From Bacteroidales bacterium (lineage in GTDB: Bacteria > Bacteroidota > Bacteroidia > Bacteroidales > VadinHA17), in the NCBI GenBank assembly GCA_036261265.1, contig DATALC010000059.1, positions 11,124-75,123 of the forward strand: 64,000 bases of DNA, written 5' to 3'. The notes under the pieces are model-generated. The model made no database searches, was not told the DNA's origin, and worked only from the letters and a program-made list of their open reading frames with translations. Positions 1,245 to 51,769 of the stretch are shown piece after piece (the first letter of the stretch is position 1; the number at the start of each line of letters is the position of its first letter). A program made the translations under genes and the position numbers.

Positions 1245-1258
1245 GCTGAATCTGCTGT

Positions 1259-2670: not shown

Positions 2671-2695
2671 ATGATATCGAATATGAACTTACGTA

Positions 2696-3526: not shown

Positions 3527-3555
3527 AATGAATTTTCTTTTAATTGTTAACCAAA

Positions 3556-4431: not shown

Positions 4432-4528
4432 TTTATTATTTTTAAGTTTACATTCTGTTTGATCAATCGCAAAGTAGTTCCGTCGGGAAGTCTCTGCAAT
4501 TTAGATACTAAACTTCATCTGTCAGGTA

Positions 4529-20504: not shown

Positions 20505-20556
20505 AAAGAAGGGCTAAAAATTCCATTCCTGGAATCGAAGTTATGAAAAATACTCG

Positions 20557-21660
20557 TTATTTACCGGTACGCTTATGTATAAATTTTGATGAAACCCAGG
20601 CGGGCAGGATTATAATACCTGCAAGAAGGAATGGATAATATGAGATAACTCTCCATATCAGGGCCATTGCAATAGATATTCCCTGTGCGTGGACCTGATC
20701 TACAGGTATCAGATCTGAAATGTATCTTCCCAGAATAAGTTCTGCAAACCCGGCTCCTCCCGGCGTCGGACTGACAATCATCATTATCCATAGAACAAGC
20801 TGCCTCGCAAATATCAGAAGATGATCAGATACTTTAAAAAATGCCAGTAGAATTGCATTCACTGTAAGATATCTTGCCGTCCAGGAGATAAAAGTGTAGA
20901 AAGATGCACTCCACCAGAATGAAAATGATTGATCTTTCAGCTCATCTGATGCATTAACAATATCATCGCCTGCCTTTACTGCTGAATTATGCCATTTCCT
21001 GAGGAAAGGTATTCTGACGATGAAAATGAGTGACTTCTTTATTGCCTGTGGTCTTATAAATAAACCGTATCCAACAAACAGAACCCAGGCAAGGATTATT
21101 GCATAACCGATGAAAGCCACGACAACAAGATTGTTCATGATCTCGGTTCCGGCGCTTTGAAAAGATGTGATGAATATTGATTTCCAGTCAATAAGGATAA
21201 GTAAAAGCGGGAACATTATGATAAAATACAATTCATCCAGAAATGATGTCAGAAGAATGGCTGATGCACTTTTCCCTGCACTTATTCCTTCTTTGTTAAG
21301 AAAGATTACTGCAAATGCTGTTCCTCCGACTGTTGATGGAGTTATTGCTGATGTGAACTCCCATAACAGGATAATGCGCAGCGATTGTAACCACGAAATA
21401 TTATTCCCTGTTATCGATCTGATCCGTGCCATGTAACCAAAAGTCCTGATAAGGACAAAGAGTATTGCAACAAAAAGCCAGAAGGCTGATTCCCATGTAA
21501 ATGTAATCTCCTTCAGCGAATCAAGGTTCACATCTTTAAGGATGAACCATAGAACTACTCCCAGACCAATAAGCACCGGAAGCAGGATCTTTACAGGCTT
21601 AAGCCTCCTGATCATTCCATAATCATCACCATCAGAATTACCCGGTAACTTTTCGGTCAT
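20557..21660 (-). CDS. flippase-like membrane protein (LPG_synthase_TM / UPF0104 family)
   Basis: 367 aa with about 8 TM segments. The characteristic SPTPGGAGFAE motif is present. Confidence 0.75.
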   Translation of the reverse strand: MTEKLPGNSDGDDYGMIRRLKPVKILLPVLIGLGVVLWFILKDVNLDSLKEITFTWESAFWLFVAILFVLIRTFGYMARIRSITGNNISWLQSLRIILLWEFTSAITPSTVGGTAFAVIFLNKEGISAGKSASAILLTSFLDELYFIIMFPLLLILIDWKSIFITSFQSAGTEIMNNLVVVAFIGYAIILAWVLFVGYGLFIRPQAIKKSLIFIVRIPFLRKWHNSAVKAGDDIVNASDELKDQSFSFWWSASFYTFISWTARYLTVNAILLAFFKVSDHLLIFARQLVLWIMMIVSPTPGGAGFAELILGRYISDLIPVDQVHAQGISIAMALIWRVISYYPFLLAGIIILPAWVSSKFIHKRTGK

Positions 21661-21833
21661 TAAAAAGATTTTTTAAAAGGGTTTTGTTTTATGATAAAGA
21701 TGGCAAATTTTAAGTGAAAATCAAAGGTTTCCGCAGTAACTGTCTATACTTATAAGTTCATTTTAAAAATTAATATTTATGTACTTTGCATCAAATCTGT
21801 TGTTTATACGTCTTTATGGAAAGGAATGAGAAA

Positions 21834-24518: not shown

Positions 24519-24848
24519 CGTTTTTTCAATAGCCTGTAAATCAGATGTATATCATGCTACCTGAAATTTTTTTTCAAAAAAATGAAAAAAAAGTGAAAAA
24601 ACAGGGTAACAAATCGGGGTCAATTCCTATTAAACGTATATAGGTGTTGTTTTTGAAAAGATGGCATTCAACTTTGCAAGACTCGCCAAACTTGATTCAC
24701 AACTATCTTCACATCAGGAAATTCCTACAATTTCCACCCCGGAATGCCATCTTTTTCTTTTAAAAAGTAATCAGATCGCTTTATCTTTATAATCATCTTT
24801 TCAGACTTTTTCTGGAAGAAAGTTGTTTACAAATCTTATTAAATTAGC

Positions 24849-25712
24849 ATGGATTCATCGATCAGAAAAGCAGTTTTAACTGCACAGCGAAACGAGATTA
24901 CAGAACACTTTATTTATCTGAGACTCTCTGAGAAGACTAAGGATCCGCGCAATGCAGAAGTCCTTAGAAATATTGCTGAACAGGAGCTTGCTCACGCAGA
25001 ATTCTGGAAATCAAAGACAAACATGAACATTAAACCCCGGAAATTCAGAATAATGATAACTGTTTTTCTGGCAAGGCTGCTGGGTCTTACATTCATGCTG
25101 AAACTAATGGAAAGCAGGGAGGGGACCGGTTCAAAGTTGTACAGCGATCTTTCAGTTGTTTTTCCTGAAGCAGGAAAATTATCAGAGGAAGAACGTGAAC
25201 ATGAGAGATCAATTCTTAAAATGCTGGATGAGGAAATGCTTACATACATCGGATCAATAGTCCTGGGTCTGAATGATGCGATCGTTGAACTTACAGGCGC
25301 GCTTGCAGGCTTTACACTCGCGTTGGGCGATACGAAGCTTATTTCTCTTGTTGGCCTTGTAACAGGGATTTCAGCGGCAATGTCGATGGCTGCCTCCGAC
25401 TATCTTTCAACAAAAGCGGAAGGCGATCCCAGGGCAGCACGATCAGCTCTATACACAGGTGTGTCATATATCTTAACGGTATTGCTGCTGATCCTGCCTT
25501 TTCTTCTGATGTCGGACAGGTTCGCGGCACTGGCAGTCACGCTTTCAATAGCTGTTCTGATAATCTTTTTCTTCAATTATTATATTTCGGTCACAAAAGA
25601 GCTGAACTTTACTCACAGGTTCCTCGAGATGACAACAATAAGCCTTGGTGTTGCTTCATTTTCGTTCTTAATCGGGTATATCCTAAGATCAGTTTTTAAT
25701 GTTGAGGTTTAA
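24849..25712 (+). CDS. ferritin-like (CCC1_N) + VIT1/CCC1 family iron/manganese transporter
   Basis: The N-terminal ferritin-like helices are EITEHFIYLRLS...EQELAHAEFW. The C-terminal VIT1 membrane domain includes GLNDAIVELTGALAG and AAMSMAASDYLS. Confidence 0.85.
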   Translation: MDSSIRKAVLTAQRNEITEHFIYLRLSEKTKDPRNAEVLRNIAEQELAHAEFWKSKTNMNIKPRKFRIMITVFLARLLGLTFMLKLMESREGTGSKLYSDLSVVFPEAGKLSEEEREHERSILKMLDEEMLTYIGSIVLGLNDAIVELTGALAGFTLALGDTKLISLVGLVTGISAAMSMAASDYLSTKAEGDPRAARSALYTGVSYILTVLLLILPFLLMSDRFAALAVTLSIAVLIIFFFNYYISVTKELNFTHRFLEMTTISLGVASFSFLIGYILRSVFNVEV

Positions 25713-25787
25713 TCCGGGGGATTAAATGAATACGCGGGTAAAGCTTCTCTTTCCCGGTCATAATATAAATAAATCAGATTTCAGGTT

Positions 25788-27200
25788 ATGCAAGGATGTA
25801 ACCGGTTACTTTTTAGCGCCTGTGTACTCTGCAGCACATTGTTTGCAAATTGCCAGGTTTTAAGGAATGATTTTTATCCCGCAGGAAAAGTAATAGATAC
25901 TGTAAGATGCCGGGACAATGCTCGATTCAGATATTCATTATATCTCCCTTCCAATTATTCAGACACATTAAAATGGCCTGTAATATTTGTTTTTGATCCG
26001 ATGGCAAGAAGTAAGCTTGCAACAACAGGGTTTGTCCCGGCAGCTGAGAAATACGGTTACATAATTGCTTGCTCCGGCAATTCCAGGAACCAGGTCCCCT
26101 GGGAGGAACTTTTGCCGGCAATAAATGCAATGTTTTCAGATGTTCAGTCAAAGTTCGCAATAGATACATTACAGGTTTACACAGCAGGTTTCTCAGGAGG
26201 TGCAAGGATTGCCTCTGCAATTGCTTTACAAAACACGATATTTTCAGGAGTGATTGCATGCGGAGCCGGTTTGCCAGGATCAGTTGGTGCTGATAACTTT
26301 CGTTCCTTCAATCTTATCGGGTTTGCCGGTGTGAGAGATATGAATTATGTTGAAATGTGTGAGCTTGAAAAATTTCTTGCAAATGAAGGTTCAAATATGG
26401 AGTTGAGAATCTTTGACGGGGGACATGAATGGCCTTCGCCCGATCAGCTTACAGGCGCTATAGAATGGCTCAGGCTCCAGGCAATGAGAGCAGGGAAAAA
26501 GAAGAAAGACGAGGAGTTTCTTAAAGGTCAGTTCATACATTATCAACACACTGCAGACTCCAGACTCAGAAACGGGGATCTTACAGAAGCCGCAAACCAA
26601 TATCAATACATTCTCAGGTATTTCCCGGATAACAGGTCTGTTTCAGCTATCCGAAAAAGACTCGACAGCCTTAAGGTTACAAAGGAATACATCAGAGCGG
26701 TTAAAGAACGGGAGAGGAGCATGGAGTGGGAGACCGGGAAGGAAAAGCAAATCAGTTCGGAAATTTTCGATGCTGTACAATCCGGCTCACCGGGCGACAG
26801 CATCAAGAATGTCGTTTCGGGTCAACTCAGGACAGTTAAAAACATGCAGAACAGCAAGGATCCTGATGAAAAAAATATGTCGGCGCGAATTCTTGGATTC
26901 ATTAGCCTGACATGTTATGAGTACGGTAAGAATTTTTATGACAGGAGGGATTTCAGGGCTGCTTCTGTATTTTACGGTTTCCAACTGATAATTGATCCGG
27001 AAAATAAGGCTCTACTGCTTCTTCATGCCAAAGCATGTGCTCAGTGCAGTGATGTCGAAGGATGCATTCATTCCCTCGAGAGACTTGTGAAACTGGGTTA
27101 TACAATGTCGGATTCTTTAAATGACAGGGCATTTGATCCGGTAAAGAATGATGGCAGGTTCAGGAAGATTGAGAGAAACCTGCAAGCAGCAGCGCATTAA
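25788..27200 (+). CDS. secreted esterase (PHB-depolymerase/dienelactone-hydrolase-like) with a C-terminal TPR-like region
   Basis: It has a signal peptide, VIFVFDP and the nucleophile elbow GFSGGARIA. A helical-repeat C-terminal half follows. Confidence 0.65.
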   Translation: MQGCNRLLFSACVLCSTLFANCQVLRNDFYPAGKVIDTVRCRDNARFRYSLYLPSNYSDTLKWPVIFVFDPMARSKLATTGFVPAAEKYGYIIACSGNSRNQVPWEELLPAINAMFSDVQSKFAIDTLQVYTAGFSGGARIASAIALQNTIFSGVIACGAGLPGSVGADNFRSFNLIGFAGVRDMNYVEMCELEKFLANEGSNMELRIFDGGHEWPSPDQLTGAIEWLRLQAMRAGKKKKDEEFLKGQFIHYQHTADSRLRNGDLTEAANQYQYILRYFPDNRSVSAIRKRLDSLKVTKEYIRAVKERERSMEWETGKEKQISSEIFDAVQSGSPGDSIKNVVSGQLRTVKNMQNSKDPDEKNMSARILGFISLTCYEYGKNFYDRRDFRAASVFYGFQLIIDPENKALLLLHAKACAQCSDVEGCIHSLERLVKLGYTMSDSLNDRAFDPVKNDGRFRKIERNLQAAAH

Positions 27201-36204: not shown

Positions 36205-36313
36205 TCCGGTACATCTATTATGAATCATGGAGATACAGGCGGGTTTTGTTTATATATCGAACAACATAAACAACAAGTATAATTTTACCAAACCCCTTTT
36301 ATTTATCAAAACA

Positions 36314-36829
36314 ATGAAAAACATTACAAAAATTCTCTCGATTGTGATCCTGGTATTTGCGTTTAGTGCAAATGTACTGGCACAGGCTACGGCAATTGCA
36401 TCTGCCACTATTGTCACCCCTATAACAATAGTGCATGTAAGTGATTTAAGCTTCGGAAACGTTGTTCCTAGTGCAACTACTGCAGGTACTGTTGATGTTG
36501 CTCCTGATGGAACTCCAAGCTATACTGATGTTACAGCCACAGCGTTGCCTGCTGCGACCGCTACGATTACTGCTGCTTCATTCAATGTATCGGGTACTCC
36601 TGCAGCGACCTATGATATTACATTACCTGTTGCGGATGTAACATTAACCGGACCTGCCGGGACAATGATTGCTAATACATTTGTTAGTGATCCTTCAGGA
36701 ACAGGCACTTTGGATGGAACTACCGGCACTCAGACTCTTAATGTGGGTGCTACTCTTCATGTAGGAGTTGCTCAGGCTGCAGGAACGTATACTTCAGCAC
36801 CGTTTACTGTGACAGTTAACTATAATTAG
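36314..36829 (+). CDS. DUF4402 / spore-coat-U-like (SCPU-like) fimbrial subunit candidate 1
   Basis: The signal peptide is MKNITKILSIVILVFAFSANVLAQ. It then reads ATIVTPITIVHVSDLSFGNV...ASFNVSGTPAATYDITLP...GATLHVGVAQAAGTYTSAPFTVTVNYN. The listed start 36227 is likely an over-extension. Confidence 0.75.
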   Translation: MKNITKILSIVILVFAFSANVLAQATAIASATIVTPITIVHVSDLSFGNVVPSATTAGTVDVAPDGTPSYTDVTATALPAATATITAASFNVSGTPAATYDITLPVADVTLTGPAGTMIANTFVSDPSGTGTLDGTTGTQTLNVGATLHVGVAQAAGTYTSAPFTVTVNYN

Positions 36830-36857
36830 ACTGGTTCAACGAATTAGTAATTATTTC

Positions 36858-37391
36858 ATGTTCAGGCTTAAGAAAACGCATCTATGCCTTCTTTTGCTGC
36901 TTTTTGACTTTAGCTCACTCTGTTTTGGACAGAGCGGAAATCCTTCAACAGCTATGGGTCATATAGTTGCAGAGGTTATAACTGTATACTCAGCAACTGA
37001 AACTGCACAGATGAATTTCGGAAGATTTGCACCGGGATCTGAGGGGGGGGAAATCATTCTTACCCCTTCAGGTACCTTATCGGTCCGTGGCAACATTTAC
37101 ACAGGCAATGGAACACATAACGCTGCAAGCTTTTATATTTCAGGTGATCCTAATGCCTCATTTACTGTGTCTCTTCCGCAAACCCCGGTTTTCCTCAAAC
37201 ATATATCGAGTTCTAAAACTATGATGATTGAAGATTGGATCGCAAACACGGGTACAGGAATTGGTTCCGGTATTTTAGAGGATGGTGCCCAGACTGTTTT
37301 TGTGGGTGCAACGCTTAAAGTTGGAAGTCTTCAGGATAATCCTGTCGGAGTGTATGCCGGAACTTATACAATATCATTCGATTTCAATTAG
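36858..37391 (+). CDS. DUF4402 / SCPU-like fimbrial subunit candidate 2 (contains a G8 tract)
   Basis: After the signal peptide it reads MNFGRFAPG...ASFYISGDPNASFTVSLP...GATLKVGSLQDNPVGVYAGTYTISFDFN, the same architecture as subunit 1. Confidence 0.75.
   Translation: MFRLKKTHLCLLLLLFDFSSLCFGQSGNPSTAMGHIVAEVITVYSATETAQMNFGRFAPGSEGGEIILTPSGTLSVRGNIYTGNGTHNAASFYISGDPNASFTVSLPQTPVFLKHISSSKTMMIEDWIANTGTGIGSGILEDGAQTVFVGATLKVGSLQDNPVGVYAGTYTISFDFN
37043..37050 (+). repeat. homopolymeric G8 tract inside the pilin-like CDS
   Basis: The codons are gaG GGG GGG Gaa, encoding E-G-G-E. This is the longest G/C homopolymer I found in the window; others are 6 nt or shorter. Confidence 0.9.
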
Positions 37392-37410
37392 CACTAATTA
37401 TCAATTTACC

Positions 37411-38268
37411 ATGCTAAACAGTAAAGCTTTGCATTCAACAAATTGGAATTGTTTGTTTTTTTTATTTCTGGCTTATATTTTCGGGACGCCTGATACTTTT
37501 GGACAGGGTAATCTGCTTATAACTCCACGAAGAGTTGTATTTGAAGGAAATAAAAGAGTAGTAGATCTGAATCTTGCGAATACGAGTCCGGATTCAGCTA
37601 CATTCGCAATATCGCTGGTGCAGATGCGAATGACAGAGACCGGCGCTTTTGAGCAGATTAACGAGCCTGATCCGGGACAATTATTTGCAAGTAACTATAT
37701 ACGTTATTTCCCTCGCACAGTTAAGTTGGGGCCTAACGAATCGCAGGTAGTTAAAGTCCAGCTTAACAGAATTAATCAGCTTTCTCCCGGCGAATACAGA
37801 TCTCATTTTTACTTCAGAGCTGTTCCCAAAGCAGATCCATTGGGTCAGGAGAGTAAGACGGTCGATACGACTGCAATAGCAGTAATGCTAAAACCTATTT
37901 TTGGCATTACAATACCGGTTATAATAAGAGTCGGTGAAGTTTCTGCCAAAATAACGCTTTCAGACTTGTCATTAAAAACGATAAACGACACTATTCCAAA
38001 TATTACGATGACTTTCAATCGTTCAGGAAATTCATCGGTTTATGGAGATATTGCCGTGTATCATATTTCAAAACAGGGAAAGGAGACAAAAGTCGGCATA
38101 GCAAATGGGATTGCAGTCTACACTCCAAATTCAAAGAGATCATTCCAGTTTAACCTGAATAACGTTCCGGGAGTGGATTACTCTTCCGGAACCCTCAGGG
38201 TTGTTTTTTCTGCGCCATCGGATGTTAAACCGGAACGGTATGCTGAAGCTGAACTTCAATTGAATTGA
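37411..38268 (+). CDS. PapD-like periplasmic pilus chaperone
   Basis: The signal peptide is followed by LLITPRRVVFEGNKRVVDLNLANTSPDSATFAISLVQ, a PapD_N-like first strand with a conserved Arg. There is a two-domain Ig-like length of 285 aa. The start is ATG at 37411, and the listed 37282 overlaps the upstream gene. Confidence 0.7.
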   Translation: MLNSKALHSTNWNCLFFLFLAYIFGTPDTFGQGNLLITPRRVVFEGNKRVVDLNLANTSPDSATFAISLVQMRMTETGAFEQINEPDPGQLFASNYIRYFPRTVKLGPNESQVVKVQLNRINQLSPGEYRSHFYFRAVPKADPLGQESKTVDTTAIAVMLKPIFGITIPVIIRVGEVSAKITLSDLSLKTINDTIPNITMTFNRSGNSSVYGDIAVYHISKQGKETKVGIANGIAVYTPNSKRSFQFNLNNVPGVDYSSGTLRVVFSAPSDVKPERYAEAELQLN

Positions 38269-38359: not shown

Positions 38360-41300
38360 TTGCTTAGCCAAATCAGTATAATACGATTATTCGTATACAA
38401 AGCAATCTTGTTTATTGCTTTTGTATGCATTAGTATTGTAATTTCAGGTCAGGTTACGGGCGATTACCAGTCTTTTCGGGATGGAACATGGAGTGATAGA
38501 ACTGATTGGAGAAGATGGGACGGGAATTCCTGGGAGACACCTACTGCAGCCCAGGGATATCCAGGTAGCAGCTCCGTTCCGGGAACTGTAACAATTCTGA
38601 ATACCCATGATATGGTTCTGAATGCAACTCCTGCTAATGCGATAGGAAACCTGATTGTAGGTCAGGGCGCAAGCGGAACACTCGTGATGGGAAGTAATAG
38701 CACCTCCAGAACACTCACAATAAACGGGAATCTTACTATCTCAACCAATGCAAGCATAACAGTAAGTAATAACACTGCGACCCATCTACTTTATATCAGT
38801 GGAAATTTAATAGTTAATGGTACACTGGATCTTCAATATGATAATAATAGCCTCTGCAGTACTGTATTTGAAGGGACATCTCAGATAATCAGTGGGGGAG
38901 GGATAGCAGATTTTTATAGTATAACGAGTAATTCCGGATTGTTATCACTTGCCCGTAATATCAACATTTACAATGGGAATATTACTGTAAACAATGGTAC
39001 ATTTGATCTGGGTGTTTACACAGCAAATCGATCTGCCGCAACCGGTACCTTGACTCTTAATGCGGGGACAACAATGAGGATCGCAGGAACCAACTCGCTT
39101 CCTGTTAATTATACATACTCATTCAACAACACAAGTACAGTCGAATATTACGGGACTTATCAGAATATAACGCCTGCAACCTATGGGAATCTGGTTATTT
39201 CAGGCAGCGGTAATAAGACAAGTTCATCAGAAGTTTTCACCGTAACTAATAATTTATCAGTCAGTTCAGGAACCCTTGTACTTCAGGCAACGAACGCTGA
39301 TTATCTAGTTGGTAACAACCTTACTGTTTCATCGGGTGCAACTCTCTATCATAATGTTGAATGGGGTACTAGACTTCTGAGTGTCGGTGGCAACCTGTCC
39401 ATTGCAGGCAACTACGATTATTCAGGAGTGCCAAGAGCTCATATACAAATGAATGGTACCGGATCGAAAACTATAAATACCGGTTCAACGGAATTAAGCA
39501 TTTTAACTCTCATGAACGGCGACTATTCCGCAACCGGTCCTGTCACGGTTAATGACAATTTCTGGGCAATGTTCGGCACCACAGGATCATTTTCAACAAA
39601 CGGTCAGACAATCAATGCTAATGCATCCTTGCTTATAAACGGCGGAACAGTAAATATTAATGGCGGTATCCTTAATGTCACAGGTGGATTGTCAGCCGGT
39701 ACAGGAGGACTTACAGGGAATGTAAATATGACTTCAGGCACACTGAATACAGATAATATTCTTATTTCGCCTTCCTGTTCATTTTTATGTACGGGTTCGC
39801 CCCAGATCAATATCTCCGGCAATTTTACAAACAACGGAACATTTACAGGAGGAAGTTCAAACATAACGCTGACGGGAATATCAGATCAAAACATTGACGG
39901 TTTCAGTACAGCCGGTACGCTGAGTGTAGTAAAAACAGGCGGAACAGCAAAACTACTTGGGAATGTAAGCGGGTCAGGGTTGACTGTGAACGGAGCGGGA
40001 GGTTCCTTAAATTTAGGAAACGGATTAACAAATACATTCAGCGGTGCATTTAACTTTTCAAACGGTTCAATAAACGGCGGTTCTTCCACACTCCGTTTAG
40101 GAGGAACATCAACTGTTACAGGAGGAAGCTTTACTGCAGGCACAGGAACAGTTGAATTTTATGGAGGAGCACAAACAGTTCCGGCTTTCGCCTACAATAA
40201 CCTTACAATATCAGGAGGAAATTCAAAGACACTTGGCGCCAATACACGGATAAGCGGCAACCTTAGCCTTACAAGCGGCATTCTGGATCTGGGTGGACAT
40301 GACCTTACTCTGGGTCCTGGCTCCGGCATTTCCGGATCATTCTCCGCCACGAGTATGATCAATACTGGTAACAATATCGTCATCAAAGAGGGGAACCAAA
40401 ACACCGATTTTATCATAAACCTTCCAATCGGTAATGGTTCTGCATACACTCCTGTCAGTATTGCAAACTTTACGGCAACAGCAATTGCTCCTTCATCATG
40501 GATCAGTGTAAGGAGTTCAGCTGCTCCCGCACCGGGAATACCAGGAACACATCCTCTTAACCGTCACTGGATAACTTCATGCAGTGGAATAACCGGATCA
40601 GTTCTTGCAGATATCAGCTTCATGTATCTTCCCTCCGATATTCCATCGGGAGGAACATCAGAATTGTATGAAATATATTACAGACCAACAGCGGGAGAAT
40701 GGGGAAAGCCAGGCGGCGCTTCGGCTGCCGGCAGTAACCCTTTAAGAGCCACTGCTGCCACAACTTTAAACGCAACATGGTCAGGCACTGAGCCTGAGAA
40801 ACGAACTTTTTTCTCCTTCAGGAGCGGCTCCTGGGATGTGGCAAGTACCTGGACACTTGACCCCTCAGGCACACAATGGCTCAATCCTGATTCATATACT
40901 CCTTCAAATTCACCAACATTTGAAAATGATGAGGTTATTGTTCTTTCAGGCCACATGGTTACTATAGCCTCCAATGGCAAGAGAAACAAGAATCTTACTG
41001 TAAACGGCACTCTTGATTTCGGAATAACAACAGGGCATTCATTTGAAACAATATCAGGAACAGGAAGAATAAGGCTTGCCAATGACAACTTCCCATCCGG
41101 TGATGCTGCAAATTTCATAACACAGGACCAGGGCGAAGGGATGGTAGAGTATTACGGGAACACACGAAATCTCAACATTTCACGTACATTTTATAATCTG
41201 GAGGTGAATCTGACCCCTGGGAACTCGCTTATTATCCTTGCAGACTATATAATTAATGGTAATCTAACAATTTCAAACGGTAGCTTTAGTATTTCTGCGC

Positions 41301-44300
41301 CTAATCCTCTTAATATTACAGTGTATGGGAATCTTTCAATAGAATCTTCTGGAAAGATTGTGACAGGTAGTGCAAATTCACGGCATCAGCTTAACCTCTA
41401 CGGAGATTTTACAAATAATGGCGAGGCCAGTTTTACTAACCGGCTTGGTCCCGACTATGTTAACGAGGCATCAAACGGGATCGTTGATGTAAATTTCCTC
41501 AACGATACAAGGAATCAGAGTATCATTTGTAATGGTCTGACAAGGTTCTACAGGATTGAAATTGACAAAGGGGAAGATTTCACTTATGTGCTGAACATTG
41601 ATGCAACAAATCCGGATTATTTCAAACTCTTAGGATTTGCAAATGAGAGTCATGGGTCAATCCCGCAACTCACTGAAAACAATAATGCGCTTGGACTTGT
41701 GAAGGGTTCAGTCAGGATCGGCAACAGCATCATTTTACCTGTATTGTCTGAAGCTAATGTTTATAGCATTTCAGAAAACGCACAATTATGGATTGACAGG
41801 GGCACAGTTTTAAAAAACGGGAATGGAACACTTGCCATCTATGGAAAATTAAAAATTTCAAATGGTCTTGTTGAAGTAAAAACAGCAGGAGGAATTACAT
41901 TCCGTGAGAATGGAATTCTTAATGTTGAAGGCGGTACTTTGAATACAAACCAGTTAAGATCATTCGAGACGGGTACATCCAATTACGGAGGTTATGTTCA
42001 AACCGCAGGAAATGTAAATATACTCGGAGGACCGGTAAACAATGATTATTATGTCTTTTCGCTTCCTTATCCAGAAAGCGTTTTCAATATGAGCGGCGGG
42101 ACTCTTACTGTAAATACAGCTACAGGAGCCGGAGGGATATTGATAAACTCCAATCCTGAAAATATAAAGGTTTCGGGTGGAGCGGTAATTGCTGAAACGA
42201 AATCGACAGATGATTTTCGTATTACGTCAACAGCTGCTTTTTGGGATCTGACTTTTAAAAACTCCACTTCTGCAACAGGACTCTTTACACTTGGTCCCGC
42301 AAATGATATAGGACCAGCCAATATTGACATTCCTGCCCAGCCTTTGAAAATACTGAATGATTTCAGAATATGGGGAAAAGAATCCGGAGGAGTCTCTTAC
42401 CCTGTAATATCATTCAGTCCCGGTACAAACGACATTTATATAGGTGGTTCTTTTTTCATCGAAGATGGCGCCAGGTATATTCCGGTCAGCGGTGGCAACC
42501 CACCTTACGATGCTATTGCCAATCAGCCCACATCAAAGAATACAACATATTTCAATAAAACAGGTGGAACAAGCCCTGTTGAAGAATTATACCAGGGTGA
42601 TATTTCAAATCCTCTGGAATTCGGTAATATAATTATCGACCGCACGAATGGTTATGAGGTAAAACTTACTTCTGCCTCCTCAAGGGTTAATGAATCAGTT
42701 ATTCTTGACATAAACGGGAGCGCATCAGTACTCTCAGGCATTCTTAATCAAAATCTTTTCACAATCCGCACCTGGGGTGCAATCGTAAATAATGACCGGA
42801 TGGGCACATGGCTTCCCGGGGTAACCCCGAGCCGTGCACAGATACAGCTTGTGGAGAATCCATCTCTTACTCTGTCGACTACTTCCAATGCAGTCTTTGG
42901 AAATGTTCAGGTTAATGTGACTCCGCCTTCATTGCTTTCACTTAGCAGCGATGTTTATATTGAACGTATGGAGTATGTGAAAGGTCTGATTTATCTGAAA
43001 AATTTCAATCTTAAAATTGATAATCTATGGAATATGGCTGCAGGCATGTTCCAGAATATTCCTGCTACAAGTTATTTGAAAGTCCTTAATAATGGCTATT
43101 CCGGTAATTCGATGATATTTACAGACGGAAAGGCAGGTGATGGAGGTCTTACGTTAAAGATAAGTTCTGACTCTCAGGCAGAAAATGAAAACAACATTTT
43201 AAACAACTTTGGACCAGTTACATTCCCCTTAGGCTTTTCTCCTGATAATGGCGTGACCCAATACTTCAGACCTGCACAAGTTGTTGTAAAAAATCTGACA
43301 ATGCCCGGGTATATAACTATAAGGCCGGTCATGGGAGCCCTTCAGACTACAAACCAGTCCGGAAATCAGGTCCTGCAACATTACTGGCGTGTTACTCATT
43401 CAGGGTTTGCGTCTCTTCCGACAGTTGCCTATCGTTTTTATTATCGCAGGCAGACCGGCATTAGTAATGTTGATTTATCCGAACTGACAAACGAAACAAA
43501 TTATGTGCCCGGGAAAGTTCTTGATGAGGCGCCTTATACACGGCAGTCTGAAAGCAACACTGACATATTCAGGGCTCTGATCGAAACAAATAGCCGTGCA
43601 ATCACTATTAATGGTTCCAGTATTAATGCCCTATTCAGTCCGGCTGTCACTGGGGTGACACTCGAGAATGCGAATTATACTGCAGGAACTACAAACCGTT
43701 TTACAGGAAGCGTTCTTATCTATTATTCACGTGATTACGAACAGGAAGCAAGATGGAACGATCGTTTATCATGGACACGCAGTGATATTTTGAATCCTTT
43801 GTACCAGCCACATGACAGCCGGCAACCGGCAGCGCCTGCAGTTCCGGGTGCCGGCGATGTTGCAGTAATTGGCTGGGTACCATGGACCGATTCTAAAGTT
43901 GATCTCAGGGGACAGCCACATGGTATGTGGATCACAGATACACGGTCTATAGCCGAAGTAGTTTTCACTAAGATGACTGACAACGCAGGTAATCCTGTAA
44001 GCCGTGTTTACAGGTCAAATTTTCAGTTCAGACCTACACTGACGATAAACGGCAGGGATGGTGATAATGGAATCCTCACTGCCAAACTTGTAAAAGGAGA
44101 GGGATTGTTCTGGAACAGAGGATCTGATCCTGATTATTCACTGATGGATATAGGTGATTTTGCCCGTCAGGATTCCTCTTATGTGATTTATGAAAACTTT
44201 ACAACTAACAGGGTTATAAATAATACACCTGCTCTTTTCCCTAACCTGTACATTTCAAATGATAACTGGGGCGCTAATGATCACAATTTTACTTTCGCCA

Positions 44301-47300
44301 GAGATATTGCTACTACAGGAAACGTGGAGTTATTGGGAAATGTCAATCTTCTGTTGCCAAATGGAACAACCGGCAATATGACAATTGGCCGGGATCTGGT
44401 AATGTTTGTGAATCAAGGTTCGGGCAGCGGCGCAGAGATCGGTTATGCCAATAGTGGTTCCCCACGAAGGATTATTGTTAATGGCGATCTTATAATGGCA
44501 AATACGGCCAGCATAATTAATGTCAGAACACCGAACACTACAGCACCTTTGGTTGATCATGAACTTCATATTAAAGGCAATATTATCCAGGGAAGCACTT
44601 CATACGCATCAACCGGGTTACGTTTATGGACAGGAGCCAACCAGGATCGGATAACATTATTCCTTGAAGGAGATAACAGCATGAATTATTACCTCATTAA
44701 TGGAAGTACACCTGTGTTGTATCGTCTTGTTATAAATAAAGGTAATAGTATTGCAACTTCAGTCACTTTCAATTCGGGTTTTAGCCTGAATGGACCCACT
44801 TATGGATCAGGCGTACCTAAAGCTCTGGAACTACAGAATGGTTTGTTCATTGTAAATAACTCAAGTGTAAATTTGAATCTTACAACCGGTAATGATCATT
44901 TTAGTATTCCTTCTACTGCCGGTCTTGAAATCAGGCAGGGCAATCTCATTACATCAGGAAATTCAGGAATTTCACTTGATGGGCTTTTACGTTTGAGTGG
45001 GGGAAATTTGAATATGTCATCTGGTGACAATCCAATAGAATACTCAGCATCCGGTAATGCAATGATAGAAGTTAGCGCCGGTACATTAAATGTTGGAGGC
45101 CAGATACGTCGCAGTCCCACTTCAGATGTTGGAATACTACACTACAAACAAACCTCAGGAACTGTTATCGCTGGAAGTAATTCGGCAACTGTGAATAACC
45201 GTGGTGTATTTGAAATACTTAATCCCGGCAGTTCTTTCTCCATGACCGGAGGCGATCTCTATATTGCCCGCTCACAAGCTAGTCCTTCCATAGCTTCTTT
45301 TTACTTCGATCCATCCAACTGCAATATTGATGTGGCAGCCAATATACATATTGGGCATTCTACTACTCCGGAAGCACAAACTATTGGAGTTTTTGCCGGC
45401 AAACCTCTGCCTAAGTTAAGGATCAATAACACAAGTAGTAATAGCCCGATCGCCAGACTTGAAATTGTACCGGCAACTATTACCAACCTGTTGCAGATTG
45501 ATGCCGGAACTTCTTTTAATGCGAACGGACTTAATCTTATTCTTAATGGAGACCTTTCTGTCAGCGGAACTTTTATTCCTGCCGGTAATACAACATTTTT
45601 CAGTGGAAACAGTCCTCAAACGATCAGCGGAAGCGGGGCATCGGTAAACTTCTATAATCTTGATAAAACTTCATCCGTTGACCTTGCTCTGAGTTCCGGT
45701 AATACTCCATTGCTTGTTTCGAATGCCATTTACCTGCGGAATGGCACCTTTTCAGACAATGGTAATACTATAACACTGAAAGGTAATATTTTCAACGATG
45801 CAGTTCACCTTAACAACGGAACAGGTGATGGAATTGCAATGAATGGCAATGTTGCCCAGTTACTCACCGGTAATGGGGTTTTCGGCAAACTTACTATTAA
45901 CAACCCCGGTGGAGTGAACATACCTGTAGGTAATCAGCTCACAATAACGCGGTCACTTAAAATGCAGGCCGGTGTCTTAAATATTGGCAGAAATCTCCTT
46001 GACCTGGGAGTGGATGCAGTGATTGAAGAAGCATCTCCTTTTTCAACTTCCAATATGATCGAGACAAATATTTCCTTTACCGATAACGGTCTTAGGAAAA
46101 CATTCAAGTCAGGGGGGCCACTGGTATTCACTTTCCCTATGGGCTCCAATTACAAGTATACACCTGTAAGAATAAATATCTCAGCCAACGGGAACAATTC
46201 AGGGAGTATCACTGTGAAACCGGCAAGTGAGATGCATCCAAGTATCGTGGATGATACCGAATCGGGCGTGCAGATTGTTGATAAGGATAACGCGCTCCAG
46301 TATTACTGGACTTTGAAATCGGAAGGAATAACTGGTTTCTCCGCTACTGCAAGGATGTATTATGCAGAGGCTGATGTAAAAGTTACTTCTCCTTACACAA
46401 TTGCAGATTACCATACTGCCAGTCTGCTTACAAGTGGCAATGGGACATGGCTGAAATTCCCAAATACCTCTTTTGATGAAACAAACAAGTGCCTAGTTTT
46501 CAGTTTTACAGGAACGGATGATGCTCAGATAAGCGGAGATTACACAGCCGGTGCCGGTGATGCAACCCTCGACGGGGCCATCCCTTCTCATATAACTGTT
46601 TATGAGACAAATAGCAGCGGAAACTGGACAACCGGATCGATTTGGACACCTAATGTAAGTGGCGGGCCCCGTGGAGGCAGTGTAAAAATAAATACACCTC
46701 ATACAGTTGATGTATCTACTGACTATCTTTCATGCTACATGGCTGAAATCAATGGTACCTTAAATCTCGCTGGCACATTCGGACACAGGTTGGGTATTGT
46801 TAATGGGGCCGGGACAATTTATATGGAAAGGGGAGAAATGCCGGCAGGAGTTTATGCAAATTTCTTCTCTCCTGCCGGTGGCACACTTCATTTTGGAGGT
46901 GCTGACAGTTACGACATTCTGGGAAATATTCCCGTTGTCAACAATCTGACTATTTCAGGAAGCGGTATGAAGAGACTTCCAAACAATAATGTTACTATAA
47001 ATGGTAACTTAACTATTACTGGCGCTTCTGATCTGGATGTAGTTAATTATTATAACAGGAAAATAAGCATTAAAGGAGATTTAACCCGTACCCTGGGTGA
47101 CTTTGAAGCCGGAACAGGTGTCAATGCGACCCTTGCTTTAAATGGAACTCTGCAACAGACGATATCAGGTTCCTTCATTGATAATAATGCTGTCAACAAT
47201 CTCGAGATTAGTAATAGTAATAATGTTACACTTGACGGGCAACTTGAAATTGACGGGGAACTGAAGCTGATTGAAGGGATGATAACTGTTGGACCATCAG

Positions 47301-50300
47301 GTTTACTGAAGATTAATTATGGAGCAGGTATTTTACCCTCTGCAGGTACACCTCTGTCTTTCGTAAACGGAATTCTGACCAAGGAATTAATGAATGGCAA
47401 CAGTTTTACATTCCCTGTTGGCAATTATACAAGCACAAAGGCACACGGTGCTATAACATTACAAAACATCTCAGGCCCTGCCGGCATCAATAACTGGAGT
47501 GCATCCTATTTCTTCTCGAGTCCGACACTTGCCGGCTATAATACTTCGAGCTATGAAAGCTCGATTTCAACTGTGAGTAACACCGAGTACTGGAATTTAG
47601 ATTGTCCTGCGTCCGGGGCTTCAGTAATCACAATCAATCTGGATGGTTCCAGTGATGTGGCCAGCGCCCTGGATGATCTTTCAAACCTGCGTGTTGTGGG
47701 ATGGAATGGTACAAGGTGGGAAATTGTCGGAACAGGAGCTATTGTTACCGGAACAAAAACTTCCGGAACAATTACAACAACGACACCCGTTGATTATGAC
47801 ATTTATTCAGTTATTACACTTGCTTCTGTAATTCCTGTTGCCTCAGGAACTGCCACAATAACAACACCTGCTGTTGTAAATATCTGTAATGGTTCAACCA
47901 CCAGGATAATTGTAAATTTTACAGGTGAAACGCCTTATGTGCTTACATATAAAGAAGGAGGTACTACAGTTTATCCTCCTGCTATTAATGAACCTTTTTA
48001 TTATATAGACGCGAATCCTTCAGGACCTACGGTATATACTTTAGAGACCATCACAGCTAACGGTGTTCCGGGAACAATCACAGGTACTTCTTCTGTAACA
48101 GTTAATGTGAATCCAAAACCTGTAGTGAACCTGACACGATCCGGTTCAGGCGCTATATGTGAAGGAACATCAATTACTTTTACAGCCTCACCGGGTTTAT
48201 CGCAATACGTCTTCAGAATAAATAGTTCTACTTACGAAAGTATCAGTAATGTTTACACTACCACACTTCCTGTTGGAACAAATTCGATTGACGTAACAGG
48301 GACAAATGCAGGTGGATGTTCGGCAACAAGCAGCGCTCTTGCTGTTACAGTTAATCCTCTGCCTGGCGCGGCTGGTGCTATCACTGGAGCCGCTTCTGTC
48401 TGTCGTGCTTCAGCCGCTCAGACATATACTGTACCGGTCATTTCTGATGCTACAAGCTATTTATGGTCCTTTTCCGGTGCTGGAGCAAGCGGTAGTAGTA
48501 ATACAAACAGCATTAATCTCACTTTCCCGACAGCAGGTACTGCTATTATTACAGTACGTGGTGTTAACGCTTGTGGTAATGGGGTGCCTTCAACCTTTAA
48601 TGTTTCTGTAAATACCTTATCAACTCCCGGGGCAGCAGGTGTAATCTCAGGTGTTAGTCAGGTTTGCAGGGGTGGAACAGGATATACTTATAGTGTAGCT
48701 GCAGTTGCTAATGCCACAAGCTATATCTGGACGTATTCAGGAACAGGCGCTGAGATAAATGGCACAGGGAATAGCGTGACAATCAATTTTGCGGGTAACG
48801 CAACAGCGGGTAACCTTAAAGTTGCGGGCACCAATGGTTGTGCAACAGGAGCTTATTCACCTAATTTCAGTATTGTTCCAAACGAACCTCCGACTGCATC
48901 CATTAGCCCTGCTGTACTTTCTGTCTGCAGTAGTGCTCCTCTTACAATTATGGCTTCTCCTTCCGGAGGGCTGACACCTTATACAGTACACTCATGGACA
49001 GGAACCGGGGCAGATTACCTGTCAACAACCTCCTCTGCTAATACAACATTCAGCAGTTCGGCAGGAGGAGACTATGGCCTTACATATACTGTTACCGATA
49101 CAAGGGGTTGTTCAGGTTCAGTTAGTACAACAGTTACTGTACATCAGTCGCCTGTTGCTAATGCAGGGACTGATCTGACTGATTTATGTTCGGGAACATC
49201 ACCAATAACTATGACAGGCGCATCTGCCTTATATTCATACACCGGTACACCGGTGTGGACAGGGACCGGAGGCACCTGGACGCAGAATCCTGATCCTGCA
49301 TTAGCAACATTCACTCCATCAACACAATCAGGCAATACGATTGCTACTCTCACTTTAACAGGAGCAAATGGTTGCTCTAATGTCACAGACTCAAGGAACA
49401 TAACATGGAGCAGAACACCTTTGCAACCCGGAAACTTCACTGTTAGCAGCTCTTCTGTTTGCCGGGGTCAGACAGGGGTTGTTTATACTGTACCAAATGA
49501 TCCCATTGTTACAACATATAACTGGACATATACTATTGGATCGGGAGCCCTTATCTCAGGAACAGGTAATAGTATTACAGTGAATTTTTCTGGTACTGCT
49601 ACGTCTGGCAGTTTGAATGTTACAGCAACGAATTCCTGCGGTACAAGTACTTCAAGATCAATTCTTATAACAGTAAATATTCCCCAGATTGCAGCATTTA
49701 GTTATCCGGGATCACCTTATTGCCCCTCAGATGCAGATCCTCTTCCGGCTCTTGTTGGATCAGCCGGAACATTTTCATCAACTGCGGGACTTATAATTAA
49801 TGCAACAACAGGATTAATTGATCTTTCTGCAAGCATTCCGGACACATATACAATCACCAATACAATTGCAGCAACAGGAGGCTGCGGAATTATTGAAGCA
49901 ACTAATGCAATAACCATAATTTCGGATTATGTATGGACAGGAGCAGCCGGGCAGGATTGGAATTTTGCGAGTAACTGGTCATGCAGCACTGTGCCGGGAA
50001 TTTACAGTTCGATCCATATCCCTGATGTACTCAATAAACCAATACTTGGTTCTACAGGTACTGTTAAAAATTTAACAATAGATGCAGGCTCCTCACTTAC
50101 TCTTGACGGAGGCGCTCTTCAGATATCGGGTACAATAACAAATAGCGGTTTACTTGATGTTTCAAATGGCAGAATAGAGCTGAACGGAACCTCTCCTCAG
50201 ATCATTCCTGAGAATGTCTTCCTTGATAATAAGATAAATGATCTCATAATAGACAATCCTTCAGGCGTTACTTTACTTGGTCCGTTAAGTGTTCTGGGCT

Positions 50301-51769: not shown

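What the first reader, a model, noticed from the sequence alone, without database searches (positions are those of the whole stretch)
38360..51769. 4469-aa giant protein built from about five Trp-motif-initiated super-repeats, a Cys-rich Ig/PKD-like array and a T9SS CTD
One uninterrupted ORF covers 21% of the window. It starts at TTG with a hydrophobic signal. It contains five recurring module-start motifs rich in Trp: GDYQSFRDGTWSDRTDWRRWDGNSW at ~38460, FRSGSWDVASTWTLDPSGTQW at ~40815 and RWNDRLSWTRSD at ~43752. The last two are SSGNWTTGSIWTPNVSGG at ~46615 and YVWTGAAGQDWNFASNWS at ~49927. Each motif is followed by 800-1000 aa of degenerate G/N/T/S-rich beta-helix-type repeats. Between ~47.8 and 49.9 kb lie several ~85-aa Cys-containing Ig-like modules, among them three clear PKD-like copies. 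The three begin AAGAITGAASVCRAS.. at ~48362, AAGVISGVSQVCRGG.. at ~48625 and QPGNFTVSSSSVCRGQ.. at ~49420. The last 77 aa are a T9SS sorting domain. The super-repeat organisation suggests growth by segmental duplication and a very long, fibre-like surface molecule.
Basis: seen in the sequence. Interest (0 to 1): 0.6.

Follow-up and report, generated by a model that had tools for sequence, protein, structure and literature searches.

The report
Giant RemA-type surface adhesin in operon
One intact 4,469-residue gene encodes a rod-like cell-surface protein exported by the Bacteroidota type IX secretion system; its huge front part is a swappable payload on a constant RemA-like tail, and that tail always occurs with a small six-gene operon for which two literature searches found no description.

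Summary
The ORF (38360-51769, +, TTG, 4469 aa) is real and intact, contains no DNA repeats, and has full-length relatives at 55-64% identity.

"Five super-repeats" is only partly true. Profile comparison shows old duplications between some segments (start of module 2 ~ start of module 4; interior of 2 ~ interior of 3; ends of 1, 3 and 4). Modules 4 and 5 are short, at 408 and about 165 aa.

An AlphaFold model of module 2 (pLDDT 88.7) is all-beta and resembles beta-helix adhesins only weakly.

The main new point is that the protein is a mosaic. Residues 3857-4469, which begin at the fifth Trp motif, are homologous to the C-terminal third of Flavobacterium RemA and RemZ. This cassette is the only part shared by the fourth gene (848-4291 aa) of the same six-gene operon in 17 related genomes. 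That operon holds three DUF4402 genes, an Ig-like chaperone candidate and a 1,200-aa SPOR protein. The cassette subfamily and DUF4402 co-occur (24/26 DUF4402-positive genomes against 0/35 negative), usually with an ATGA stop/start overlap.

Most likely this is a T9SS-exported adhesive fibre docked to the operon's other products. The chaperone-usher reading is not shown by sequence.

The parts
38360..38452 (+). TTG start and Sec-type signal peptide (aa 1-31)
   Evidence: ORF call and translation. By inspection the sequence has a basic n-region, a 14-residue hydrophobic core and SGQ before the first Trp motif. The relative P0007 has an equivalent signal ending in AQ.
38456..40804 (+). Module 1 (aa 33-815): Trp motif 1, G/N/T/S-rich repeat region and an end domain. 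The N-terminal ~570 aa are variable among relatives.
   Evidence: Motif at aa 34. Low occupancy and conservation of aa 1-600 in the family alignment. aa 521-772 are homologous to aa 2492-2681 and 2863-3038 (hhalign 92-96%). Weak Fil_haemagg match, 18.7 bits, below the cut-off. Not modelled.
40805..43750 (+). Module 2 (aa 816-1797): Trp cap, ~700-aa all-beta region of short strands read as a solenoid, and a ~200-aa all-beta region at its C-terminal end
   Evidence: AlphaFold2 model of aa 795-1800 has pLDDT 88.7 and pTM 0.79, with 67 short strands (mean 5.2 residues) in model residues 60-765. Foldseek top hits are Ag43, SPATE passengers and tailspikes, but E >= 0.015. The start is homologous to the start of module 4 (97%).
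43751..46612 (+). Module 3 (aa 1798-2751): Trp motif 3, a highly conserved unique head, a repeat region and an end domain
   Evidence: aa 2021-2368 are homologous to aa 972-1312 of module 2 (hhalign 95-96%). The end domain aa 2575-2745 resembles that of module 1 (92.8%). 60-80% identity to relatives. Not modelled.
46613..47836 (+). Module 4 (aa 2752-3159): short version made of a module-2-type cap plus a module-1/3-type end
   Evidence: aa 2734-2909 match aa 804-993, and aa 2863-3038 match aa 521-705 and 2405-2605.
47837..49924 (+).
   Evidence: PKD_6 scores 118-132 bits in 3 stretches. hhalign between modules reaches up to 99.4%. Cys pairs are 53-61 residues apart in 7 of 8 modules, and 15 of the protein's 27 Cys lie here.
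49925..50419 (+). Cassette part 1 (aa 3856-4020): fifth Trp motif plus a short repeat region. This is the start of the constant RemA-type cassette.
   Evidence: The shortest operon homologue (848 aa, L038) aligns from aa 3859. RemA residues 890-975 align to this motif. The model shows strands throughout.
50420..51535 (+). Cassette part 2 (aa 4021-4392): conserved beta-rich region with invariant QRYL..GYKY.SSPF, GNPYPSP..W, SMQGF and DALK..NTD motifs
   Evidence: Invariant columns in 20-47 sequences. Aligns to RemA 1091-1398 (E 2.5e-9) and, as a profile, to RemA and RemZ (E 7.5e-21 and 6.7e-20). 4,435 representative proteins match at E <= 1e-3; in the rows I checked, about 85-95 residues remain after the matched stretch. 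No Pfam model matches.
51536..51769 (+). Divergent type A T9SS C-terminal sorting domain (aa 4393-4469) and stop codon
   Evidence: TIGR04183 scores 26.5 bits alone against 17.9 in the whole protein; Pfam scores 18.3 against a cut-off of 27. It is the weakest of 18 such domains in the genome. All 10 operon homologues tested have TIGR04183 as best hit, 7 at or above the cut-off. The fold matches sorting domains bound in the T9SS translocon (8glk_D TM 0.74, 8gl6_D RemA 0.69) and the mirolase CTD (0.68).
36227..37391 (+). Two DUF4402 genes (36227-36829 and 36858-37391), operon genes 1 and 2
   Evidence: Pfam DUF4402 at 95.6 and 87.2 bits. The same order occurs in relatives.
37282..38268 (+). Operon gene 3: Ig-like periplasmic protein and chaperone candidate. 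The ORF as listed overlaps gene 2 by 110 nt, so the true start is probably downstream.
   Evidence: fn3_5 matches in 19 of 19 homologues. PapD_N matches below threshold in 13 of 19 (best E 1.2e-4). A profile search of PDB found no match.
51766..52293 (+). Third DUF4402 gene. Its ATG overlaps the giant gene's TGA (ATGA).
   Evidence: Pfam 70.9 bits. The -4 overlap is conserved in 13 of 17 related operons and a -1 overlap occurs in 2.
52314..55922 (+). Operon gene 6: 1202-aa protein with an SdrD_B/CarboxypepD_reg-like domain and SPOR domains. The usher-like reading is unproven.
   Evidence: SPOR 57.6 bits and SdrD_B 30.2 bits. 0 of 17 homologues match Pfam Usher. A PDB profile search finds only SPOR.

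Best explanation
The gene encodes a Sec- and T9SS-exported cell-surface fibre of the RemA family, built as a mosaic.

A cleavable signal peptide takes it to the periplasm. The C-terminal type A sorting domain then engages the SprA/PorV translocon and the protein ends up on the outside of the outer membrane.

The front ~3,820 residues are the payload. They comprise four beta-rich rods, each opened by a short aromatic cap of the form Y-x-S-x-x-S-G-x-W-x5-W and, at least in module 2, closed by a beta-rich end domain. Eight disulfide-type Ig-like modules follow. Fully extended this would be roughly 100 nm (my estimate from usual rise per coil and per domain), which suits adhesion at a distance.

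The last ~610 residues are a constant cassette homologous to the C-terminal third of Flavobacterium johnsoniae RemA and RemZ. They comprise the fifth Trp cap, a short rod, a ~370-aa conserved beta region and the sorting domain.

In this lineage the cassette defines the fourth gene of a six-gene operon: DUF4402, DUF4402, an Ig-like chaperone candidate, the T9SS protein, DUF4402, and a 1,200-aa SPOR-domain protein. The cassette most likely holds the payload on a surface platform or fibre made by those partners, while payloads are exchanged between genomes.

Shown: the intact gene, its module map, the homologies, the fold of module 2, the sorting-domain fold, the presence of a T9SS, the operon conservation, the co-occurrence and the gene overlap.

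Inferred: export, surface retention, adhesion and docking to the DUF4402/SPOR products.
For: - Gene integrity: intact ORF, no DNA repeats, GC like its surroundings. Full-length relatives share 55-64% identity overall, and the core aa ~600-3750 shares 60-80%.
- Fold of module 2: pLDDT 88.7, all-beta, nearest folds beta-helix adhesins.
- Sorting domain: TIGR04183 at 26.5 bits on the isolated tail. 10 of 10 operon homologues have the same best hit. The fold matches translocon-bound sorting domains at TM 0.64-0.74.
- T9SS in the genome: SprA at 2703 bits and 17 other type A cargo proteins.
- RemA homology of aa ~3857-4469: E 2.5e-9 directly, 7.5e-21 and 6.7e-20 by profile.
- RemZ was seen trapped in the translocon by its sorting domain, and RemA is a gliding adhesin (PMC10994853).
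- Operon: the same six genes occur in L004 with different flanks and in 17 related genomes. There the fourth gene is 848-4291 aa and shares only the cassette.
- Co-occurrence: the high-identity cassette subfamily is present in 24 of 26 DUF4402-positive genomes and 0 of 35 DUF4402-negative ones among 61 genomes (Fisher p = 5e-15, not corrected for relatedness).
- Gene overlap: the ATGA overlap with the third DUF4402 gene is kept in 13 of 17 operons.
- In this genome both DUF4402 and the cassette occur only in this operon.
Against: - The sorting domain is weak. It is below the cut-off in whole-protein scoring and in Pfam, and it matches only profile positions 22-71.
- No fold match of the rods reaches significance (best E 0.015).
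- Modules 1, 3 and 4 were not modelled, and the cassette model is only moderate (pLDDT 76).
- Nothing shows what the payload binds. Its unusually high conservation (60-80%, above the 43-56% of the operon's other proteins) could point to a function other than adhesion.
- Close payload relatives work without the operon, so docking to DUF4402 products is not needed for the payload as such.
- No physical link between the cassette and the DUF4402 or SPOR proteins was tested.
- Co-occurrence among 37 genomes of one genus is partly shared ancestry.
- No expression or read-level data could be obtained.
Confidence: 0.7

Rival explanations
1. It is a free-standing gliding adhesin that works like RemA. 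After T9SS export it is carried along the cell surface by the gliding track. The DUF4402/SPOR neighbours would be co-regulated but would not be physical partners.
For: The cassette is homologous to RemA and RemZ. The genome has a GldJ homologue at about the curated cut-off (452.9-460.6 bits against 458.2) and SprA. Payload relatives occur without the operon. The conserved cassette domain is very widespread in proteins of all sizes (4,435 representatives).
Against: The high-identity cassette subfamily is never found without DUF4402 genes in 61 genomes. The stop/start overlap with a DUF4402 gene is conserved. No RemA-type lectin domain was found. This reading partly overlaps the best explanation rather than excluding it.
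Confidence: 0.15
2. It is the tip adhesin of a very divergent chaperone-usher pilus. It would be exported through the 1,202-aa neighbour acting as usher, and its C-terminal beta-sandwich would be a pilin-type domain rather than a T9SS signal.
For: The gene lies between a candidate chaperone (PapD_N below threshold in 13 of 19 homologues) and a small subunit-like gene plus a large envelope protein. Earlier notes of this scan read the operon this way.
Against: 0 of 17 homologues of the large neighbour match Pfam Usher, and a PDB profile search finds only SPOR. A DUF4402 profile finds no pilin in PDB. The tail matches T9SS sorting domains by HMM in 10 of 10 homologues and by fold. It is also homologous to RemA and RemZ, which are proven T9SS cargo.
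Confidence: 0.05
3. It is a surface-anchored enzyme, such as a polysaccharide lyase or depolymerase of the tailspike type. The beta-helix rods would carry active sites rather than simply serving as adhesive shafts.
For: Phage tailspike depolymerases and a PL6 alginate lyase appear among the weak fold matches. The core is unusually conserved for an adhesin (60-80%). The window contains glycan-related genes such as GH43 and CBM9-like.
Against: No Pfam or NCBIfam enzyme family matches anywhere in 4,469 residues. The top fold matches are adhesins (Ag43), and none is significant.
Confidence: 0.07
4. It is an assembly artefact or a decaying pseudogene that happens to remain open.
For: The genome is a 115-contig draft. 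The fourth gene is fragmented in two related genomes (L033 and L036).
Against: The frame is uninterrupted for 13.4 kb. There are no direct or tandem DNA repeats that could collapse in assembly. Relatives of similar length include P0004 (4462 aa, 64% identity over 88% of the query, in the same operon) and P0007 (4349 aa, 56% over 99%). Conservation is strong along the core.
Confidence: 0.02

Closest known systems
RemA and RemZ of Flavobacterium johnsoniae (type A T9SS cargo; RemA is a mobile gliding adhesin)
   Same: The last ~600 residues are homologous: the Trp cap (RemA 890-975), the GNPYPS-containing region (RemA 1091-1398) and the type A sorting domain. The sorting-domain fold superposes on the RemA and RemZ domains bound in the translocon (PMC10994853).
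   Different: The payload is ~3,800 residues of beta rods plus Ig-like modules, against ~900 residues in RemA. No lectin domain was found. The gene is a fixed member of a DUF4402/SPOR operon. Any role in motility is unknown.
SprB of Flavobacterium johnsoniae (giant gliding adhesin)
   Same: A giant, repetitive, T9SS-dependent cell-surface filament of Bacteroidota (my own knowledge).
   Different: SprB uses a type B sorting domain and a dedicated PorP/SprF-type partner (my own knowledge). Here the tail is type A (TIGR04183), and no type B family appeared in the NCBIfam scans.
Mfa5 of the Porphyromonas gingivalis Mfa1 (type V) fimbria
   Same: It is a protein with a T9SS-targeting C-terminal domain, encoded inside a fimbrial operon whose other subunits travel by a different route (PMC7835359). 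This is the only published precedent I found for the arrangement proposed here.
   Different: There is no sequence relationship. Mfa5 has a von Willebrand factor domain and an isopeptide bond. The partner fimbria is type V, built from lipoprotein precursors rather than DUF4402 proteins.
GhpA grappling-hook protein of Aureispira (5,898 aa)
   Same: It is a giant surface fibre of a Bacteroidota member. A profile of this protein's distant relatives matches GhpA in 12 stretches (E 8e-26); the stretch listed lies in the part of the profile I take to be Ig-like modules.
   Different: This protein itself gives no direct PDB match to GhpA. The similarity appears limited to common repeat modules.
Beta-helix passengers of type V secretion (Ag43, SPATE proteases, FHA)
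   Same: Long beta rods used as adhesins are the top fold matches of module 2, and there is a weak Fil_haemagg repeat match.
   Different: The matches are not significant (E >= 0.015; 18.7 bits against a cut-off of 21.5). No autotransporter barrel or TPS domain is present, and the export route is T9SS.

Membership tests
T9SS type A cargo (TIGR04183 / PF18962 sorting domain) | C-terminal ~70-100-aa domain matching the type A sorting-domain model above its cut-off | tested here: met
   TIGR04183 scores 26.5 bits against a cut-off of 23 on the last 100 aa and 26.2 bits in the genome scan. It scores only 17.9 bits when the whole protein is scored, Pfam PF18962 gives 18.3 against 27, and only profile positions 22-71 are covered. 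Of 10 operon homologues, all hit TIGR04183 best and 7 reach the cut-off.
T9SS type A cargo (TIGR04183 / PF18962 sorting domain) | Beta-sandwich fold of the sorting domain as seen bound to SprA/PorV | tested here: met
   Foldseek of the cassette model gives 8glk_D TM 0.74 and rmsd 2.7, 8gl8_D 0.67, 8gl6_D (RemA) 0.69 and mirolase CTD 0.64-0.68, all at probability 1.00. The model has pLDDT 85-90 over the last 70 residues.
T9SS type A cargo (TIGR04183 / PF18962 sorting domain) | N-terminal Sec signal peptide and a T9SS encoded in the same genome | tested here: met
   The signal peptide was judged by inspection of the translation only. SprA scores 2703 bits, and 18 type A sorting domains are found in the genome.
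T9SS type A cargo (TIGR04183 / PF18962 sorting domain) | Secretion that depends on the T9SS | not testable with these tools
   This needs a T9SS mutant or a fusion-protein assay.
RemA/RemZ family of T9SS adhesins | Homology of the C-terminal region upstream of the sorting domain | tested here: met
   phmmer of aa 3850-4469 against RemA gives E 2.5e-9 in two stretches (RemA 890-975 and 1091-1398). The family profile gives RemA E 7.5e-21 and RemZ 6.7e-20 over ~450 residues.
RemA/RemZ family of T9SS adhesins | Lectin-type payload and movement along the cell surface during gliding | tested here: not met
   No lectin family appears in the Pfam or NCBIfam scans of the whole protein or its pieces. 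Movement is not testable here. A GldJ homologue exists in the genome.
Chaperone-usher pilus system (tip adhesin) | An usher (PF00577-type outer-membrane pore) encoded in the operon | tested here: not met
   0 of 17 homologues of the 1,202-aa neighbour match Usher even at E <= 1. A PDB profile search returns only SPOR domains.
Chaperone-usher pilus system (tip adhesin) | A PapD-like periplasmic chaperone | tested here: inconclusive
   PapD_N scores 17.6 bits against a cut-off of 23 here, and matches below threshold in 13 of 19 homologues (best E 1.2e-4). The generic fn3_5 family matches all 19. There is no PDB match.
Chaperone-usher pilus system (tip adhesin) | Pilin-type subunits assembled by donor-strand exchange | tested here: inconclusive
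   A DUF4402 profile of 35 sequences finds no pilin in PDB (best hit is a collagen adhesin at E 0.034). No fold was predicted.
PKD_6 (PF19408) domain proteins | Match above the Pfam gathering score | tested here: met
   118-132 bits against a cut-off of 25, in three stretches.
Type V secretion beta-helix adhesins (autotransporter / two-partner) | C-terminal translocator barrel or N-terminal TPS domain | tested here: not met
   No such Pfam family was found. Fil_haemagg scores 18.7 bits against a cut-off of 21.5.

The most novel reading that the evidence does not exclude
The operon builds a surface organelle fed by two export routes. The DUF4402 proteins, helped by the Ig-like periplasmic protein and the SPOR-anchored 1,200-aa envelope protein, would form a platform or fibre. 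The T9SS would deliver a RemA-type protein whose constant cassette plugs into it, probably with the third DUF4402 protein, to which it is translationally coupled. Exchanging the front part (848 to 4,469 residues among relatives) would then change what the organelle binds without touching the assembly machinery.
Probability: 0.3. Interest if true: 0.75.

Novelty: new variant of a known kind. Interest (0 to 1): 0.5.

Why it matters
Giant T9SS adhesins are common in Bacteroidota, and this one on its own is a new member of the RemA family. Three points go beyond that.

1. It gives a clear module map and a confident model for a 3,100-residue core. That core is conserved at 60-80% in many uncultured Bacteroidales and has no Pfam coverage.

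2. It shows that the fifth Trp motif marks the boundary between a swappable payload and a constant RemA-type cassette. This suggests what the conserved but uncharacterised C-terminal third of RemA-like proteins is for: attachment to a partner.

3. It ties one cassette subfamily strictly to an operon of DUF4402 and SPOR-domain proteins. The literature library holds no paper on either DUF4402 or PF14352.

If the docking idea is right, it would be a second case after Mfa5 of a T9SS-delivered component of a fibre built by another route. It is also a tractable one, because it can be tested by deleting operon genes and following the giant protein.

Tried and rejected
- A scan of genome contigs with the whole protein chose patterns that were too specific. 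It returned 13 mostly partial loci and was of little use beyond naming relatives such as Saccharicrinis, Tenuifilaceae and Bacteroidales MAGs.
I used tblastn on the laid genome instead.
I replaced it with window-against-whole-alignment runs.
- A 47-sequence alignment was too large for structure prediction, so I cut it to 20 sequences.
- Whole-protein phmmer against PDB found nothing, and neither did the Ig-like region alone. Only the C-terminal 620 aa and the family profile found RemA and RemZ.
- PDB profile searches for an usher, a chaperone or a pilin among the operon neighbours found nothing relevant. The single DUF4402 protein also gave nothing.
- Literature searches for DUF4402 and PF14352 returned 0 papers. 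The RemA paper PMC3393505 is not held.

Readings considered and rejected:
- Autotransporter or two-partner adhesin: no translocator or TPS domain.
- Pseudogene or assembly artefact: no repeats, intact frame, relatives of similar length.
- Recent tandem duplication: no DNA-level repeats.
Full report
**Observation.** The window holds one ORF at 38360..51769 on the + strand. It starts at TTG and gives 4469 aa. GC content (0.41-0.45) matches the surroundings. The gene contains no direct or tandem DNA repeats, so repeat collapse in assembly is unlikely.
- The five Trp motifs lie at aa 34, 820, 1798, 2752 and 3857, within 2 nt of the stated places.
- Close W..W pairs are enriched: 12 against 2.4 expected, reached in 0 of 2000 shuffles.
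- Pfam recognises only PKD_6 above threshold (118 bits, three stretches). About 90% of the protein has no Pfam or NCBIfam model.

**Internal repeats.** I aligned 35 full-length relatives and compared 160-aa profile windows with the whole alignment. The internal homology is real but patchy.
- aa 804-993 match 2734-2909, that is the start of module 2 and the start of module 4 (97% in a targeted test).
- aa 972-1312 match 2021-2368, the interiors of modules 2 and 3 (95-96%).
- aa 521-772 match 2492-2681 and 2863-3038, the ends of modules 1, 3 and 4 (92-96%).
- The Ig-like modules match one another at up to 99.4%.
- The other Trp-motif regions align in register over 14-26 residues only, and not significantly.
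- The end domains are related for modules 1 and 3 (92.8%) and only weakly otherwise.

Module sizes are 783, 982, 954 and 408 aa, and the stretch after motif 5 is about 165 aa. The protein therefore carries old segmental duplications but is not five equivalent super-repeats. The region aa 3160-3855 is eight 83-94-aa modules. Seven have a Cys pair 53-61 residues apart.

**Structure.** Module 2 (aa 795-1800) was modelled with a 34-sequence alignment at pLDDT 88.7 and pTM 0.79.
- A short strand and the Trp cap come first.
- About 700 residues of short strands follow: 67 strands, mean 5.2 residues.
- About 200 residues, also all-beta, close the module; I read these as a separate end domain.
- Foldseek against PDB gave no significant match. 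The list is headed by Ag43, SPATE passengers and phage tailspikes (best E 0.015). That fits a beta-helix rod without a close solved relative.

The C-terminal 620 aa modelled at pLDDT 76. The model shows a short strand-rich rod, several beta-rich regions and a final domain. That final domain superposes on T9SS sorting domains bound in the translocon: 8glk_D at TM 0.74, 8gl6_D (RemA) at 0.69, 8gl8_D at 0.67, and the mirolase CTD at 0.68.

**Sorting domain.** The evidence is mixed at the level of this one sequence and clear at the level of the family.
- TIGR04183 scores 17.9 bits in the whole protein, below the cut-off of 23.
- It scores 26.5 bits on the last 100 aa.
- Pfam PF18962 stays below its cut-off, at 18.3 against 27.
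- This is the weakest of 18 type A domains in the genome.
- In ten homologues from related operons, TIGR04183 is always the best hit (20.2-36.3 bits) and reaches the cut-off in seven.
- The genome encodes SprA at 2703 bits.

I take the domain as a real but divergent type A signal.

**Family and mosaic structure.** 230 large proteins match the query. The core aa ~600-3750 is conserved at 60-80% in many Bacteroidales-type MAGs and in the relatives whose records are named Williamwhitmania and Mariniphaga. The first ~500 residues and the last ~700 residues are optional.
- Some close relatives stand alone or in tandem pairs, far from any DUF4402 gene.
- One relative (P0004, 4462 aa) sits in the same six-gene arrangement as here, with different flanking genes.
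- Between these two genomes the core (60-80%) is more conserved than the operon's other proteins (43-56%).

**Operon.** The giant gene is the fourth of six co-directional genes.
- Genes 1 and 2 are DUF4402 (36227-36829 and 36858-37391).
- Gene 3 is an Ig-like protein with a sub-threshold PapD_N match (37282-38268).
- Gene 4 is the giant.
- Gene 5 is DUF4402 (51766-52293), whose start overlaps the giant's stop as ATGA.
- Gene 6 is a 1202-aa protein with SdrD_B-like and SPOR domains (52314-55922).

DUF4402 occurs nowhere else in this genome. The cassette also occurs nowhere else in it.

Among 61 related genomes, 26 have DUF4402 genes. The spacing between the second and third copy varies from about 3.6 to 14.5 kb. 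I fetched 20 of these clusters.
- In 17 of them an intact fourth gene of 848-4291 aa fills the gap.
- In two more (L033, L036) it is broken into fragments, and one cluster (L025) lacks it.
- All fourth genes share only the region equal to aa ~3857-4469 here, at 37-50% identity.
- The shortest one aligns from aa 3859, which is exactly the fifth Trp motif.
- The stop/start overlap with the third DUF4402 gene is -4 in 13 of 17 and -1 in two.

The high-identity cassette subfamily is present in 24 of the 26 DUF4402-positive genomes and in none of the 35 negative ones. Fisher's test gives p = 5e-15, but the genomes are related, so this is not a true probability. One of the two exceptions, G033, has a divergent cassette (28% identity) next to its DUF4402 genes.

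**What the cassette is.**
- The 620-aa tail matches F. johnsoniae RemA directly at E 2.5e-9. The Trp cap aligns to RemA 890-975, and the conserved region with GNPYPS aligns to RemA 1091-1398.
- A profile of the wider family matches RemA at 7.5e-21 and RemZ at 6.7e-20 over ~450 residues.
- The conserved region aa 4021-4392 has 4,435 representative relatives at E <= 1e-3. The 150 listed host proteins run from 362 to 5,169 aa. In the rows I checked, about 85-95 residues remain after the matched stretch.
- It has no Pfam model.

**Mechanism.** The most likely reading is a T9SS-exported, surface-retained adhesive fibre. Its front part is an exchangeable payload. Its RemA-type cassette is the constant part that holds it on the cell, here most likely through the operon's own products.
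- Export, retention, adhesion and docking are inferred.
- The anatomy, homologies, operon conservation, co-occurrence and gene overlap are shown.
- A RemA-like moving adhesin is not excluded, because a GldJ homologue is present.

The chaperone-usher reading was offered in earlier notes of this scan. It did not pass the sequence tests I could run.
- None of 17 homologues of the large neighbour matches Pfam Usher.
- PDB profile searches find only SPOR.
- They find nothing for the chaperone candidate.
- They find no pilin for DUF4402.
- PapD_N stays below threshold.

A fold-level test remains open.

**Comparison and novelty.** As a protein, this is a new and very large member of the RemA family of type A T9SS cargo. 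It lacks RemA's lectin payload. The published arrangement it most resembles is Mfa5, a T9SS-targeted protein encoded in a fimbrial operon (PMC7835359), but there is no homology. The literature library holds no paper that mentions DUF4402 or PF14352. Several earlier notes of this scan describe the same operon in other genomes. I reached the operon result, before reading those notes, and I count them as agreement, not as independent support.

**Limits.**
- Only two structure jobs were allowed, so modules 1, 3 and 4 and the operon neighbours were not modelled.
- The signal peptide was judged by eye.
- The ~100 nm length is my estimate from typical dimensions, not a computed value.

Noticed in passing
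G000 contig C59:126-11849 (minus strand), outside the window: This is a distant paralogue of the giant protein (28% identity over ~3,900 aa). It runs to within 126 nt of a contig end, so its C-terminus may be cut off. A GldJ homologue lies ~18 kb away on the same contig (C59:29984-31465).
   Followed up: no
L001:8001-18740 and 19891-26740; L002:8001-18773 and 18995-26773: Stand-alone relatives of the payload core occur as tandem pairs of giant genes, for example in a record named Williamwhitmania taraxaci and in a metagenome contig. Several of these relatives end without a T9SS sorting domain, in a short conserved tail of the form ...H-R-x-P-E-T-G-P-x-Y-H-x-P-N.
   Followed up: partly
G023:C8:159379-160443, G018:C249:5794-6855, G032:C7:26829-27911, G003:C2:107202-108275, G001:C67:22191-23252, G014:C61:8450-9526: Some related genomes carry a second high-identity copy of the cassette in open frames of only ~585-601 aa, which would be cassette-only proteins with no payload. 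One of them (in G014) lies ~1 kb upstream of a DUF4402 gene. This genome has none.
   Followed up: no
L033 (G031) and L036 (G025); L021 (G024) and L026 (G003): In two related genomes the fourth gene is broken into several short frames. In two others the SPOR-domain gene is fragmented. So the operon is decaying in some lineages, or these are assembly errors.
   Followed up: no
L025 (G054:C11:24800-36000): In a genome of another family the cluster has DUF4402, DUF4402, the Ig-like gene, DUF4402 and a 1001-aa relative of the large protein, with no T9SS gene between them. Two ~600-aa genes follow, and one has a weak match to the cassette (30% over 141 aa).
   Followed up: no
window 37282-37391: The listed ORF of operon gene 3 overlaps the second DUF4402 gene by 110 nt. 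Homologues are 273-296 aa and the alignment is conserved only from about residue 55-75, so the true start is probably downstream.
   Followed up: partly
window 38360-51769 compared with 36227-38268 and 51766-55922: Between this genome and the one holding P0004, the payload core is 60-80% identical. The operon's other five proteins are 43-56% identical and the cassette is ~30-58% identical. The payload is thus either under stronger constraint or was exchanged more recently.
   Followed up: partly
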